From a virus (lineage: Duplodnaviria; Heunggongvirae; Uroviricota; Caudoviricetes), in IMG/VR virus record IMGVR_UViG_3300028952_000024, positions 1 to 7,662 of that record: a stretch of DNA of 7,662 nucleotides; one strand, given 5' to 3'. This document shows positions 1 to 5,676 of this stretch, piece by piece; position 1 is the stretch's first letter, and every line of letters begins with the position of its first letter. The translations under genes were made by a program, and so were the position numbers. The notes beneath the pieces are model-generated. The model was given only the letters and a program-made list of their open reading frames with translations, was not told the DNA's origin and made no database searches.

Positions 1-477
1 TTATCTTACTCGGTAAGCATGTTCCAACACCAATCTAGCTAAATCAGTTTGTTGATTTGATAAATCGACTTCATACGTAAAACATAGTAAAGATAATACT
101 CTTGCAAATTTAACTCGTACTTTTTGCAAAGATTTATAAAAAAGTACTTCATCTGTCGAATTTTGATGCTTATATAATAACATTAAATTTTGACTTAGAG
201 TGTGGATTAAATCTAATATTAAATGTTGCGCTTGCTTGGATTTTATGTCCAATCTTAGTTGCTCTGTTTTATCTTTGATTGATTCTAAGCTTTTGATTAC
301 TGCTTGGGAAACCTCTGAATCGAATGGTGCAGTTAAAACCTTTTTACCTTCAAGATAACTGAAATATTTCTCAAACAGTTTCTTATCCGGATCAGATATA
401 AATGGAATCAACTCTTTAGCTGTGATGCCCGAGATGGATGCGACATTTGCTAAACCACCAATTATTTCTAAAAACAA
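1..477 (-). CDS. hypothetical small protein, 158 aa; tentative HEPN-like fold (C-terminal Rx4HxY motif)
   Basis: Complete ORF on the minus strand. The start is TTG (complement of 475-477), preceded by a canonical AGGAGG Shine-Dalgarno (complement of 484-489) with a 6-nt spacer; the stop is the complement of 1-3. Very AT-rich coding sequence compared with neighbouring genes. The last residues ...LARLVLEHAYRVR contain R148-x4-H153-x-Y155 (encoded at 13-36). No homology search was possible. Confidence 0.6.
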   Translation of the reverse strand: MFLEIIGGLANVASISGITAKELIPFISDPDKKLFEKYFSYLEGKKVLTAPFDSEVSQAVIKSLESIKDKTEQLRLDIKSKQAQHLILDLIHTLSQNLMLLYKHQNSTDEVLFYKSLQKVRVKFARVLSLLCFTYEVDLSNQQTDLARLVLEHAYRVR

Positions 478-910
478 TTTCGGCCTCCTAGTGATAATTT
501 AGATAATTAGACTATTTTTTAACTACTAAGTCTCGAAAAGTAGAAGTGTCCATTTGAGTTAGGATGTTATAGATAATACTACGATCGTTTGGGATGCACT
601 ACTACCAGATTTGCTACATTACGTAAATTTAGCTATCTAGATAAAACGGCTATAATCACTCAGTAATAATTTCAATACTAAACATCCCTATGTTGCCCGA
701 CCAGATTGTGTTTATCACAATTCTTGGTATTAGGCTTTATTCCATTCATGAGTAAACGTCCGCTCCTGGCACATAGCAGTCCTAGAGACACTGGCGTAAA
801 GCCATGGAGGATCGGTGGGAGGAGACGCTAATCCTTTCATACAAAAAATATGTAAAATCAATAACGGCTGTAAATCATTCAATACTCGCCCTATCGGAAG
901 TTCACCAGCC

Positions 911-970
911 AACCGCAGCACGTTCTTGCATACGACGTGGCTGCGGTTTCAACTCCCGCCAGCTCCACCA
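911..970 (+). repeat. att-like repeat A: hairpin arm plus a core resembling the 3' end of the tmRNA gene ssrA
   Basis: Positions 943-970 (GCGGTTTCAACTCCCGCCAGCTCCACCA) match the recalled E. coli ssrA 3' terminus (T-arm, acceptor 3' strand, CCA) with one or two mismatches. Sequence upstream of 943 shows no tmRNA features, so this is a partial copy and not a gene. Positions 913-946 form a 10-bp stem with one bulge and a 13-nt loop. About 45 bp of the arm recurs at 5082-5126. Confidence 0.5.
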
Positions 971-1097
971 ATCATGATTGGACGGTGTAAGGACAACACC
1001 AACAAAAACAGGAAGTTAGCAGTCTCAGCAGGACACCGACCAGACGGTGAGGAGACAAAAAAGGATACGCAAAGGAGCCGCGGCTCTCGAGTGACAC

Positions 1098-1128
1098 AAA
1101 AGCCCGCTTATGCGGGCTTTTTGTTTTT
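1098..1128 (+). terminator. Rho-independent terminator
   Basis: GC-rich stem AGCCCGC (1101-1107) and GCGGGCT (1112-1118) around a TTAT loop, extended by A:T pairs and followed by a T-tract (TTTTGTTTTT, 1119-1128). Confidence 0.7.
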
Positions 1129-1198
1129 CCCTTAAGTTCCTAGCCGCTTATCTATAACTATGGAAAAATGTTAACCCTGACTGTATGTTAACAAAGGG

Positions 1199-3881: not shown

Positions 3882-4287
3882 AATTCCTCCAAGGGGTCTA
3901 ATGGGTGAAACTTTATCACTCATTCAACCCAGAAGGAAATGTTTTATCTGGATATTTAAACAGTGACTACAACGTAATCTAGCACTGGTGATGCTTTGTT
4001 AGGCATAGAGAATCATTCTATATACGGCTAATGACAGAAAAACAGCAGACAAGTAGTTTGTTCATAAATTAACGCATACTATGTGTCTACGGTTTTCGAG
4101 ACCGGTCCAATCATCAAACGAAACATAAAATTAGCTCACATTATGAGGAAAAGTATCTTTTTTGTACTATGTAAATTCAAAGGCTTAGCCTCATTTCTCC
4201 GATGGTTTTCTCAACACTACTGGTTGTGAGCCCTTGCAATGATCATTAATATACGTCTCACAAATAATTCTTCATAGATATTGCAAA

Positions 4288-5061
4288 ATGGATATTACTG
4301 AGTTTCCTTCTGGAGTAATTGAACACCTTGGCTGGTATGTATACCGATTGATTGATCCGAGGGACGGAAGCACCTTCTATGTAGGGAAAGGCAAAGGTAA
4401 CCGCGTATTTGCCCATATGCGCGGTGAAGTGGCAGCGACTGATGATGACGAGTTACTGAGCAACAAGCTAAAGCAAATTAGAGAAATAAGGTTAGCAGGA
4501 CTTGAGGTTATCCATGTCATCCATCGACACGGAATGACTGATGAAAAGACGGCGTACGAAGTTGAAGCAGCACTTATTGATGCCTACCCTGGGTTAACGA
4601 ATATCATGAATGGTGCTGGCAGCAATGAATTCGGCGCCGCGCATGTCAAAGAGTTGATAGCAACATATCAACCCGAAACCATAATATTTCATCATAAAGC
4701 ATTAATGATTTCCGTTAACAGAAGTGCAAAGGATTCAGAGCTTTATGATGCGGTTCGATTTAGCTGGCGCATTAATGTCTCTCGCGCTAGCCAAGCAGAA
4801 GTCATTCTTGCTACTGTAAGGGGGATCGTTCGAGGGGTTTTCATTGCTGATAAATGGCTCAAATCAACACGTGAAAATTTCCCTACGATGAAATACTGGG
4901 ACGAGGATCCGGACTTTGAGGCAACACAAAGTTCTCGCTATGGTTTTGAAGGTCGAGAAGCCTCACCTGAAATAGCAAATCTTTATCTTGGAAAAAAAAT
5001 ACCAGATGAATTAAGAAAAAAAGGAGCTATGTCCCCGGTCCGTTACTCACCTAATTTTTGA
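4288..5061 (+). CDS. GIY-YIG nuclease-domain protein with an uncharacterised C-terminal domain, 257 aa
   Basis: The N-terminus carries a GIY-YIG signature: W16-Y-V-Y19 ... F30-Y-V-G33-K-G-K-G-N-R39-V-F-A-H43 (encoded about 4333-4416), with candidate catalytic E91 and N105 at typical spacing. The C-terminal ~150 aa has no motif I recognise. No Shine-Dalgarno is evident upstream of the ATG, and an in-frame stop at 4240-4242 excludes a longer N-terminus. Confidence 0.75.
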
Positions 5062-5081
5062 GTCTTTAAGTGATAAGCATA

Positions 5082-5137
5082 AACCGCAGCACGATCTTCT
5101 TGCATACGACGTGCTACGGTTTCATTTATCTCCGACC
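5082..5137 (+). repeat. repeat B: degenerate copy of the repeat A arm, hairpin-forming
   Basis: Positions 5082-5126 align with 911-951 (AACCGCAGCACG..TTGCATACGACGTG..CGGTTTCA) with a 3-bp indel and a few mismatches; the ssrA-like core is not conserved beyond GGTTTCA. Stem 5084-5093 with 5110-5119 (9 bp plus one mismatch) and a 16-nt loop. It sits between the convergent GIY-YIG and invertase genes and overlaps the last codons of the invertase. Confidence 0.45.
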
Positions 5138-5676
5138 GGAAACTTCTTATACAGTGTCGATATACCAACATCATAGATGATCGCCACCTTCTGGCGAGGA
5201 ACGCCTGATGCAATTAATCGCCCGGCCTGCGCCCATTGTTCTGGTGTAAGTTTGGGACGACGTCCCCCAATTCGTCCCTGTGCGCGAGCAGCTTCCAGTC
5301 CAGCTTTTGTTCGTTCAACAATCAGTTCTCGTTCCATTTCAGCCAGGGCACCCATCACATGAAAGAAAAAACGCCCCATCGGTGTGCTGGTATCAATAGC
5401 ATCCGTCAGGCTGCGAAAATTAACGCCACGTTCGCGCAACTCCTCAACCAGAATGACCAGATGCCGCATACTACGCCCCAGCCGATCCAGCTTCCAGACA
5501 ACCAGAGTGTCACCTGCCGATAATGTCCTGAGCAGCTTTTTCAGTCCTGGTCTGTAGGACTTTGTACCGCTTATCTTGTCTTCAAAAATCAGCTCACATC
5601 CTGCACAGTTCAGCGCATTACGTTGTAGATCGGTATTCTGGTCATTTGTTGATACACGTACATAGCCAATAAGCAT
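5122..5676 (-). CDS. pin: serine-recombinase DNA invertase, Pin/Gin/Hin/Cin family
   Basis: 184 aa from the ATG that is the complement of 5674-5676, with AGGGGG 6 nt upstream. The N-terminus MLIGYVRVSTNDQNTDLQ holds the catalytic serine; conserved LVVWKLDRLGRS, FFHVMGALAEMERELI and GRIGGRRPK follow, then a C-terminal helix-turn-helix (...ISTLYKKFP). It lies immediately beside an inverted-repeat-bounded segment. The longer ORF starting at 5712 is rejected because those codons lie inside the inverted repeat. Confidence 0.93.
   Translation of the reverse strand: MLIGYVRVSTNDQNTDLQRNALNCAGCELIFEDKISGTKSYRPGLKKLLRTLSAGDTLVVWKLDRLGRSMRHLVILVEELRERGVNFRSLTDAIDTSTPMGRFFFHVMGALAEMERELIVERTKAGLEAARAQGRIGGRRPKLTPEQWAQAGRLIASGVPRQKVAIIYDVGISTLYKKFPVGDK

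What the first reader, a model, noticed from the sequence alone, without database searches (positions are those of the whole stretch)
1..5676. Defence cargo clustered at the invertase-proximal end of a prophage-like element
A HEPN-like candidate, a full RM system and an orphan nuclease sit in compositionally distinct, AT-rich-bounded blocks directly beside the invertase and tail-fibre genes. This mirrors the cargo hotspots next to the invertase in known elements (mcrA beside pinE in e14; mom beside gin in Mu). Unassigned ORFs in such hotspots are good candidates for undescribed immunity functions.
Basis: partly seen in the sequence, partly recalled or inferred. Interest (0 to 1): 0.45.

Follow-up and report, generated by a model that had tools for sequence, protein, structure and literature searches.

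The report
Known restriction genes beside prophage invertase
The stretch between the Pin invertase and the end of an e14-type E. coli prophage carries two already characterised anti-phage restriction systems (an EcoRII-type restriction-modification pair and the 5hmC-dependent nuclease CMoRE/PD-T4-3), and related prophages carry other defence genes at the same place, so the finding is real but an ordinary example of a known kind of prophage defence hotspot.

Summary
The genes are there and the main idea holds, but nothing inside the window's prophage slot is new. ORF 1199-2413 is an EcoRII-type endonuclease (86% identical to EcoRII, PDB 1NA6). ORF 2448-3923 is its Dcm-family C5 methyltransferase. 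The "orphan nuclease" (4288-5061) is CMoRE/PD-T4-3, a solved type IV enzyme that cuts 5hmC/glucosyl-5hmC DNA (6 differences in 257 residues from PDB 9U75). Pin (5122-5676) is 94.6% identical to e14 PinE, and DNA homology to e14 stops exactly at the pin stop codon, where e14 carries mcrA. In strain RM13322 the same cargo lies inside a 44.5-kb prophage bounded by the ssrA 3' end and a 23-nt direct repeat.

The slot varies. Among 5,426 complete E. coli genomes, 570 have CMoRE beside pin, 330 have mcrA and 26 have Avs2. About 260 carry this EcoRII restriction gene. One relative carries uncharacterised ORFs there. The same Pin protein sits at the same chromosomal locus with either cargo set.

The "HEPN-like" ORF (1-477, DUF6650) lies beyond an internal ssrA attachment-core relic, its RxxxxH arginine is not conserved, and its model is a generic four-helix bundle. 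HEPN is not supported.

Verdict: new member of a known kind, low to moderate interest.

The parts
1..477 (-). 158-aa ORF of the DUF6650 family (TTG start with an AGGAGG ribosome-binding site); function unknown.
755..951 (+). Dispersed repeat of about 100-200 nt that ends in a hairpin (911-951). It marks module borders at prophage ends.
   Evidence: Present in 5,413 of 5,426 E. coli genomes, median 3 copies. Found at the left end of Qin in K-12, between ecpE and ykgJ, upstream of CMoRE in strain C7, and directly after pin in the Avs2 variants. Six copies are aligned.
948..970 (+). The last 23 nt of ssrA (tmRNA), TTCAACTCCCGCCAGCTCCACCA. This is the attachment core of the prophage, here as an internal relic not joined to ssrA.
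   Evidence: Homology to RM13322 begins inside ssrA at window 943. The same 23 nt recur perfectly at the far end of that 44.5-kb prophage.
971..1125 (+). Phage-borne copy of the ssrA trailer with an intrinsic terminator (stem-loop 1098-1121).
   Evidence: About 90% identical to the sequence that follows ssrA (or the right end of CP4-57) in 4,171 genomes. The terminator hairpin folds at -19.8 kcal/mol, z -5.5.
1199..2413 (+). EcoRII-type (type IIE) restriction endonuclease, 404 aa.
   Evidence: Pfam EcoRII-N (E 3.9e-61) and EcoRII-C (E 2.4e-71). PADLOC REase_II at 775 bits. 347/403 identical to EcoRII, PDB 1NA6.
2448..3923 (-). Dcm/M.EcoRII-family C5-cytosine methyltransferase, convergent with the endonuclease gene. 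RefSeq starts it at 3881 (477 aa).
   Evidence: Pfam DNA_meth_N plus DNA_methylase. NCBIfam PRK10458 at 927 bits, above the cut-off of 710. PADLOC MTase_II at 762 bits.
4075..4098 (+). Degenerate copy of the end of the repeat hairpin. It marks the left border of the CMoRE module.
   Evidence: In about 620 genomes that have CMoRE without EcoRII, homology starts at window 4074-4090. In strain C7 an intact repeat element abuts the CMoRE module at this point.
4288..5061 (+). CMoRE / PD-T4-3: a GIY-YIG type IV restriction endonuclease specific for 5hmC and glucosyl-5hmC DNA.
   Evidence: PADLOC PD-T4-3, E 8.7e-140, full length. 251/257 identical to the E. coli O157:H7 CMoRE crystal structure 9U75. 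Biochemistry in PMC12923530.
5082..5121 (-). Second good copy of the repeat hairpin, directly after the pin stop codon. Probably the terminator of pin, and the right border of the cargo.
   Evidence: Direct repeat of 911-951. As minus-strand RNA it folds at -22.5 kcal/mol, z -4.5, and is followed by UUUAU. Homology to e14 ends at 5121.
5122..5676 (-). Pin serine DNA invertase, 184 aa.
   Evidence: Pfam Resolvase plus HTH_7. 94.6% identical to K-12 PinE.
5682..7662 (.). Invertible tail-fibre segment. Perfect 76-nt inverted repeats (5682-5757 and 7587-7662) flank 1,829 bp that encode two alternative fibre C-termini and two tail-fibre assembly proteins.
   Evidence: Inverted repeat. Pfam Gp53-like_C and Caudo_TAP in the ORFs at 5703-6119, 6022-6561 and 6533-7126. 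Both end ORFs begin with the same 18 residues, which are encoded in the repeats.

Best explanation
The window is the invertase-proximal (late-operon) end of an e14-family temperate myovirus prophage of E. coli, with accessory defence genes stacked between the last phage gene (pin) and the edge of the inserted DNA.

Two independent, already characterised restriction systems sit there. The first is an EcoRII-type R-M pair. The endonuclease cuts unmethylated CCWGG after binding more than one site, and the Dcm-like methylase protects self DNA. The second is CMoRE/PD-T4-3, a tetrameric GIY-YIG type IV enzyme that degrades DNA containing 5hmC or glucosyl-5hmC (T-even phages) and ignores C and 5mC. 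Together they cover unmodified and hypermodified invading DNA, and they are compatible with each other, because 5mC made by the methylase is not a CMoRE substrate.

Each gene block is a self-contained 'moron': low G+C, its own AT-rich upstream region, and its own terminator or hairpin. The blocks are exchanged among related prophages by recombination at conserved borders. These borders are the pin 3' end with its hairpin, further copies of the same hairpin or repeat element, and the 23-nt ssrA attachment core.

Shown: gene identities, prophage membership, variability of the slot, and the repeated border sequences. Inferred: the specificities (from 86-98% identity to studied enzymes), expression in the lysogen, and the exchange mechanism.
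For: Gene identities. CMoRE mechanism: PMC12923530, and activity in a native host in bioRxiv 10.1101/2024.12.20.629700.

Prophage membership: RM13322 has ssrA, EcoRII R, M, CMoRE, pin, tail fibres, baseplate, sheath, capsid, terminase, lysis genes, repressor and integrase, followed by the 23-nt repeat.

e14 homology, with the break at the pin stop codon.

Alternative cargo. The exact same Pin protein lies next to either CMoRE plus EcoRII (plus DUF6650 and AbiTii) or Avs2, at the same paoD/yagP locus. Population counts are 570 genomes with CMoRE beside pin, 330 with mcrA and 26 with Avs2. EC974 carries uncharacterised ORFs in the ssrA-pin slot. CMoRE also lies beside tfa, without pin, in a lambdoid prophage at ssrA.

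Borders: hairpin copies at 911-951, 4075-4098 and 5082-5121. The left edge of the CMoRE module is at 4074-4090 in about 620 genomes.

Composition.
Against: No expression or phage-challenge data exist for this locus. The specificities are inferred from homologues.

In the window's own genome type (TUM10008-like) the prophage is degraded (several pseudogenes). It is not at ssrA, and the attachment core is an internal relic, so the cargo region is composite and its history is unresolved. Tandem integration, imprecise excision and recombination between hairpins are all possible.

In the Avs2 variants, Avs2 lies beyond the repeat element, in the position of DUF6650/AbiTii rather than that of CMoRE.

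Across other genera the sequence after pin is often host DNA. Only 3 of 20 large pin-adjacent ORFs hit PADLOC, so enrichment for defence genes is shown for E. coli e14-type elements, not in general.
Confidence: 0.85

Rival explanations
1. The cargo does not belong to the prophage. It is a chromosomal defence island, or a stack of small integrase-less islands, that accreted at the ssrA / paoD-yagP integration hotspot, and the prophage merely lies next to it.
For: An internal ssrA att-core relic and a trailer copy at 948-1125. Repeated border elements flank each module. DUF6650/AbiTii, Avs2, an ABC-three-component system or a CP4-57-like island alternate to the left of position 755. Defence systems are known to cluster next to phage att sites (PMC12829572).
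Against: In RM13322, EcoRII and CMoRE lie between attL (the ssrA end) and pin, inside the 23-nt direct repeats that bound a 44.5-kb prophage. The CMoRE-pin junction is conserved in 570 genomes, and where contexts were inspected it lies both at ssrA and at paoD/yagP. CMoRE also travels beside tail-fibre assembly genes in a different (lambdoid) prophage.
Confidence: 0.2
2. The genes persist mainly as selfish addiction modules that stabilise the prophage remnant, rather than as useful anti-phage immunity. Loss of the type II R-M pair would kill the cell after segregation.
For: EcoRII has the same specificity as the host Dcm methylase, so most coliphages grown on dcm+ E. coli would already be protected (established knowledge: Dcm and M.EcoRII both methylate CCWGG; type II R-M systems can cause post-segregational killing). 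Cargo is retained where the structural genes have decayed.
Against: A resident chromosomal Dcm would also neutralise addiction by EcoRII. CMoRE has no modification partner and is a proven anti-T-even defence, both from its native promoter and in a native host. The alternative occupants of the slot (McrA, Avs2) are not addiction modules.
Confidence: 0.2
3. The region is conserved core genome, and the apparent clustering has no significance.
For: None found.
Against: This EcoRII-type restriction gene is present in 261 of 5,426 genomes, CMoRE in 865, and the exact 1-5757 arrangement in only 2 of the 30 best-matching complete genomes. The blocks are low in G+C.
Confidence: 0.01

Closest known systems
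e14 cryptic prophage of E. coli K-12 (ymfQ-stfP-tfaP-tfaE-stfE-pinE-mcrA-attR)
   Same: Homologous element. Pin is 94.6% identical, the baseplate/ymfQ DNA is 96% identical, the gene order is the same, there is an invertible tail-fibre segment, and a type IV restriction gene follows pin directly.
   Different: e14 integrates in icd and carries the HNH enzyme McrA (specific for 5mC/5hmC). This element uses the ssrA core and carries the GIY-YIG enzyme CMoRE plus a full EcoRII-type R-M pair. DNA similarity stops at the pin stop codon.
CMoRE / PD-T4-3 (Vassallo et al. 2022; Nat Commun 2026, PDB 9U75 and 9U7U)
   Same: Same protein: 251/257 identical to the O157:H7 enzyme, same length, GIY-YIG domain and acidic loop (DDDE in place of DDDD).
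   Different: None of functional note. The published work does not discuss the genomic position beside pin or tail-fibre genes: a text search of that paper found no 'prophage' or 'invertase'.
EcoRII restriction-modification system (type IIE, CCWGG) and chromosomal Dcm
   Same: Two-domain endonuclease 86% identical to EcoRII. Convergent Dcm-family methylase with the DNA_meth_N domain.
   Different: Carried on a prophage rather than a plasmid. There is no vsr gene in the window. The specificity is inferred, not tested.
Prophage defence hotspots: the P2 tin/old locus and the Z/fun locus after the tail-fibre genes, P4 hotspots (Rousset 2022; Vassallo 2022); mom beside gin in Mu
   Same: A fixed position in a conserved phage backbone, next to tail-fibre or invertase genes or to att, occupied by different defence genes in different relatives (for P2).
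   Different: A different phage backbone (HK97-type head, Mu-type baseplate, e14 family). Here the slot is terminal, between pin and att. Its borders carry a repeated hairpin element.
Defence systems flanking phage att sites and mobilised by lateral transduction (Sci Adv 2026, PMC12829572)
   Same: Variable defence genes (Avs2, AbiTii, an ABC-three-component system) lie just outside the att-core relic.
   Different: No transduction was tested here, and the prophage in the window's own genome type is defective.

Membership tests
EcoRII-type (type IIE) restriction-modification system | Endonuclease with an N-terminal effector-binding domain and a C-terminal PD-(D/E)XK catalytic domain | tested here: met
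   Pfam EcoRII-N (residues 18-165) and EcoRII-C (residues 229-393). 347/403 identical to 1NA6, with the KKPDFLFP and AVKTTCKDRW stretches unchanged.
EcoRII-type (type IIE) restriction-modification system | Adjacent cognate C5-cytosine methyltransferase | tested here: met
   ORF 2448-3923, convergent with the endonuclease gene across a 34-bp gap. NCBIfam PRK10458 at 927 bits, above the cut-off of 710.
EcoRII-type (type IIE) restriction-modification system | Cleavage and methylation at CCWGG, with a requirement for two or more sites | not testable with these tools
   Inferred from 86% identity only.
CMoRE / PD-T4-3 (type IV GIY-YIG restriction enzyme) | Full-length similarity to the characterised protein, including the C-terminal modification-sensing domain | tested here: met
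   PADLOC PD-T4-3, residues 1-256 against profile positions 1-255 of 256. 251/257 identical to 9U75 over the full length.
CMoRE / PD-T4-3 (type IV GIY-YIG restriction enzyme) | GIY-YIG catalytic motif and an acidic autoinhibitory loop | tested here: met
   WYVYRL...FYVGKG and DDDE are present and aligned with 9U75. The roles of these features are described in PMC12923530.
CMoRE / PD-T4-3 (type IV GIY-YIG restriction enzyme) | Degrades 5hmC/5ghmC DNA and protects against T-even phages | not testable with these tools
   Shown for the 98%-identical O157:H7 protein.
Gin/Pin/Cin/Hin DNA invertase with an invertible tail-fibre segment | Small serine recombinase (Resolvase plus HTH_7) next to a segment bounded by inverted repeats that encodes alternative fibre ends | tested here: met
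   Opposite orientations of the segment are seen among otherwise identical loci.
   RLVLEH occurs in the query, but across 21 family members the first position is R, K, S or N.
Prophage defence hotspot (variable cargo slot) | The same position in homologous elements is occupied by different defence genes | tested here: met
   After pin lies mcrA, CMoRE (with or without EcoRII), Avs2 or unknown ORFs.
Prophage defence hotspot (variable cargo slot) | The slot lies within the boundaries of a phage genome | tested here: met
   In RM13322 the slot lies between the ssrA core and the 23-nt repeat 44.5 kb away. Packaging was not tested.

The most novel reading that the evidence does not exclude
The pin-to-att slot of e14-family prophages and its immediate outer flank could be a source of undescribed immunity genes. 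Two candidates stand out, both without any defence annotation. One is DUF6650 in this window (1-477). The other is a roaming 343-aa prophage protein with a central hydrophobic stretch that occupies the same ssrA-pin slot in E. coli EC974, lies beside pin in Mangrovibacter and Citrobacter, and sits at tail-gene moron positions in Enterobacter and Klebsiella prophages. In addition, the repeated hairpin element at the module borders may be the recombination 'linker' that drives cargo exchange.
Probability: 0.25. Interest if true: 0.5.

Novelty: new member of a known kind. Interest (0 to 1): 0.3.

Why it matters
It shows that the classical pinE-mcrA arrangement of e14 is one state of a variable slot found across E. 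coli. The slot also carries CMoRE (about 10% of complete genomes), an EcoRII-type R-M pair, Avs2 nearby, and some uncharacterised ORFs. That gives a simple anchor (pin plus its terminator hairpin) for mining prophage-borne defence genes. It also explains where the recently characterised CMoRE enzyme usually sits in E. coli genomes. For this window itself the practical result is an annotation: all cargo between pin and the attachment core is already understood.

Tried and rejected
(1) I first read 755-942 as a diverged 3' half of ssrA. I rejected this: only 943-970 matches ssrA, Rfam tmRNA scores 9.5 bits, and the stretch is a dispersed repeat present in nearly all E. coli genomes.

(2) No tRNA, tmRNA or Rfam family passes threshold in the window.

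(3) I tested whether the repeat is the right-end arm of CP4-57. It is absent from that end in K-12.

(4) A cross-species survey of 72 Pin loci, with a PADLOC summary of 149 neighbouring ORFs, was uninformative: each family was hit by at most 3 members. Detailed scans of 20 large neighbours gave 3 defence hits, and three of those neighbours scanned against Pfam included clear host genes, a molybdopterin oxidoreductase and a GH31 hydrolase. In P2-like prophages pin lies between the tail-fibre and sheath genes, with no cargo.

(5) I tested whether AbiTii is an obligate partner of DUF6650. It is not conserved next to the homologues in Vibrio, Serratia or Aeromonas.

(6) The structure model of the 343-aa EC974 protein was too poor (pLDDT 62, pTM 0.31) to justify a fold search.

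(7) A literature search for an explicit description of a pin-adjacent defence hotspot found none. It found only general statements that recombinases lie near defence genes.
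Full report
WHAT IS IN THE WINDOW

ORF calling and Pfam/PADLOC/NCBIfam scans give this map:
- 1-477(-): a 158-aa ORF with a sub-threshold DUF6650 match.
- 478-1198: no coding sequence.
- 1199-2413(+): an endonuclease with the EcoRII-N and EcoRII-C domains.
- 2448-3923(-): a Dcm-family C5 methyltransferase (NCBIfam PRK10458, 927 bits).
- 4288-5061(+): a GIY-YIG protein.
- 5122-5676(-): a Resolvase/HTH_7 invertase.
- 5682-7662: a tail-fibre segment bounded by perfect 76-nt inverted repeats. It encodes two alternative fibre C-termini and two tail-fibre assembly proteins.

G+C is 29-35% over 1-750 and 35% over 3900-4350. It is 40-48% in the cargo genes and 50-53% in pin. No tRNA, tmRNA or Rfam family reaches threshold.

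IDENTITY OF THE CARGO

The endonuclease aligns end to end with EcoRII (PDB 1NA6) at 347/403 identical residues.

The 'orphan nuclease' matches the PADLOC PD-T4-3 model over its full length (E 9e-140). It differs at 6 of 257 positions from the crystallised E. coli O157:H7 protein 9U75. That protein has been renamed CMoRE. It is a type IV, modification-dependent GIY-YIG endonuclease that degrades 5hmC and glucosyl-5hmC DNA but not C or 5mC DNA. It acts as a tetramer, needs two modified sites, and is held in check by an acidic loop (PMC12923530). It also protects a clinical isolate in its native context.

Both systems are therefore known. Their combination makes sense: the R-M pair targets unmodified CCWGG, CMoRE targets the hypermodified DNA that escapes it, and the 5mC written by the methylase is not a CMoRE substrate. 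This last point is inferred from the published specificity.

IS IT A PROPHAGE, AND WHERE IS ITS END?

The window matches many E. coli genomes. In strain RM13322 the order is ssrA, EcoRII R, M, CMoRE, pin, invertible fibres, Mu-type baseplate, sheath and tube, HK97-type head, terminase, lysis genes, Q, repressor and integrase. Homology to the window begins inside ssrA at window 943. The last 23 nt of ssrA (window 948-970) recur perfectly 44.5 kb away, just past the integrase end. The R-M pair and CMoRE therefore lie inside a prophage, between attL and pin.

Window 971-1125 is a phage-borne copy (about 90% identical) of the native ssrA trailer and terminator, a sequence found in 4,171 of 5,426 genomes.

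The window's own genome type is represented by TUM10008, which is 100% identical over 1-5757. There the element lies beside yagP'/paoD, is riddled with pseudogenes, and is not joined to ssrA. Its ssrA core is an internal relic. The DUF6650 ORF, together with an AbiTii-domain gene just outside the window, lies beyond that relic.

RELATION TO e14

K-12 e14 has the order ymfQ-stfP-tfaP-tfaE-stfE-pinE-mcrA-attR. Window Pin is 94.6% identical to PinE, and the RM13322 baseplate DNA is 96% identical to e14. DNA similarity (92%) ends at window 5121, one base beyond the pin stop codon, where e14 continues into mcrA.

IS THE SLOT VARIABLE?

Looking up the exact Pin protein returned two neighbourhoods at the same paoD/yagP locus. 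One has CMoRE, EcoRII M and R, DUF6650 and AbiTii. The other has a single 1,484-aa ORF that PADLOC identifies as Avs2 (1,756 bits).

Junction-specific searches of 5,426 complete genomes give 570 with CMoRE beside pin, 330 with mcrA beside pin and 26 with Avs2 beside pin. CMoRE occurs in 865 genomes, but only 242 have the methylase next to it, and 261 have the EcoRII gene after the trailer. The two systems therefore move independently.

Further contexts:
- Strain EC974 has the same prophage family at ssrA, with a 343-aa, a 114-aa and a 70-aa ORF in the slot. None hits PADLOC, and Pfam gives only one non-significant match (GrpE, E 0.09).
- A predicted prophage deposited as phage vB_EcoM-611R5 has two unknown ORFs between pin and the host gene yfhH.
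- A lambdoid prophage at ssrA (strain C7) carries CMoRE beside tfa, without pin.
- An O6:H16 strain retains only CMoRE-pin-[invertible segment]-pin-Avs2: two prophage ends fused back to back.

MODULE BORDERS

The 40-nt hairpin at 911-951 is repeated directly after the pin stop codon (5082-5121). As minus-strand RNA that copy folds at -22.5 kcal/mol (z -4.5) and is followed by UUUAU, so it is a plausible pin terminator. A degenerate copy at 4075-4098 coincides with the left edge of the CMoRE module. That edge is defined by about 620 genomes whose homology starts at 4074-4090 and by strain C7, where an intact copy of the element abuts CMoRE.

In the Avs2 variants a single copy of the element follows pin directly, and Avs2 lies beyond it.

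The element (755-951, especially 852-949) is a dispersed repeat found in 5,413 of 5,426 genomes, with a median of 3 copies. Copies lie at the left end of Qin in K-12 and between ecpE and ykgJ. Six aligned copies show an invariant stem and a terminal hairpin but only two covarying pairs. Whether it is an RNA or only a recombination linker is undecided.

I infer that cargo is swapped by recombination at these conserved borders. Tandem integration or imprecise excision would also leave such scars, and I could not discriminate among the three.

THE 'HEPN-LIKE' ORF

BROADER SURVEY AND LITERATURE

Among 72 Pin loci from other species, pin is often the terminal prophage gene next to host genes. In P2-like phages it lies between the fibre and sheath genes. 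Defence hits near pin were McrA, a PtuA-like ATPase (Salmonella), a type IIG enzyme (a Pectobacterium plasmid) and a methylase. General enrichment is therefore not demonstrated.

The concept is established. Vassallo et al. describe prophage hotspots, including the P2 locus that holds the fun gene. A 2026 study shows that defence genes cluster near att sites and are diversified by lateral transduction. Kirigo et al. note that recombinases lie near defence genes, and they show that Pin-type inversion of the e14 segment itself blocks T2 adsorption. I found no paper that describes this particular pin-adjacent slot.

VERDICT

The content, however, is two known restriction systems in a known kind of place. 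I rate it a new member of a known kind, with interest about 0.3. The residual novelty lies in DUF6650, in the roaming 343-aa protein family seen in relatives, and in the repeated border element.

Noticed in passing
L106:12200-20997 (E. coli O6:H16 2014EL-1346-6, NZ_CP024232.1): CMoRE, pinE(-), a lone invertible tail-fibre segment, a second pinE(+) and Avs2. Two pin-proximal cargo ends are joined back to back with all other phage genes gone, forming a mini defence island. It may have been made by recombination between the invertible segments of two prophages.
   Followed up: partly
window 755-951 (core 852-949); also L118:4471-4569, L001:11468-11557, L005:10548-10654, L007:10553-10747: A dispersed repeat of about 100-200 nt found in 5,413 of 5,426 E. 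coli genomes (median 3 copies). It ends in a hairpin that is followed by a T-run in some copies. It lies at prophage ends near pin or tfa and also in the ecpE-ykgJ intergenic region. The only Rfam match is weak, to CssrB on the opposite strand.
   Followed up: partly
L121:9209-10240 (E. coli EC974); L048:10873-11898; L038; L122-L129: A 343-aa protein family with no PADLOC hit and no significant Pfam hit, and with a central hydrophobic stretch. It occupies the ssrA-pin slot in EC974 and lies beside pin in Mangrovibacter (81% identical) and Citrobacter. It also sits at a lambdoid prophage end in Enterobacter and between the tail chaperone and tape-measure genes in Klebsiella prophages. It is a candidate superinfection-exclusion or defence moron. 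The structure model was poor (pLDDT 62).
   Followed up: partly
L001:19030-19899 (just left of the window start): A gene for a 289-aa AbiTii-domain protein, convergent with the DUF6650 ORF. The two co-occur in all E. coli contexts seen, but DUF6650 homologues in Vibrio, Serratia and Aeromonas lack it.
   Followed up: partly
L005:8170-11674 (E. coli C7): A lambdoid prophage at ssrA carries, between attL and tfa, a BRO-N gene, an HTH/ImmA-type pair (with PADLOC CapP- and RmrA-like hits) and CMoRE. This is the same cargo module in a different phage backbone.
   Followed up: no
H137, E. coli FAM21845 (NZ_CP017220.1 2927707-2928477): The EcoRII-type methylase and the intergenic region up to window 4270 are present without CMoRE. 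The right border of the R-M module therefore overlaps the upstream region of CMoRE.
   Followed up: no
window 5703-5757 and 7587-7641: Both alternative tail-fibre end ORFs begin with the same 18 residues (MMPFACYFFIFINVGLGE), which are encoded inside the 76-nt inverted repeats. The recombination sites therefore lie within the fibre coding sequence, as in the Mu G and e14 P segments. The window ends exactly at the outer edge of the right repeat.
   Followed up: yes
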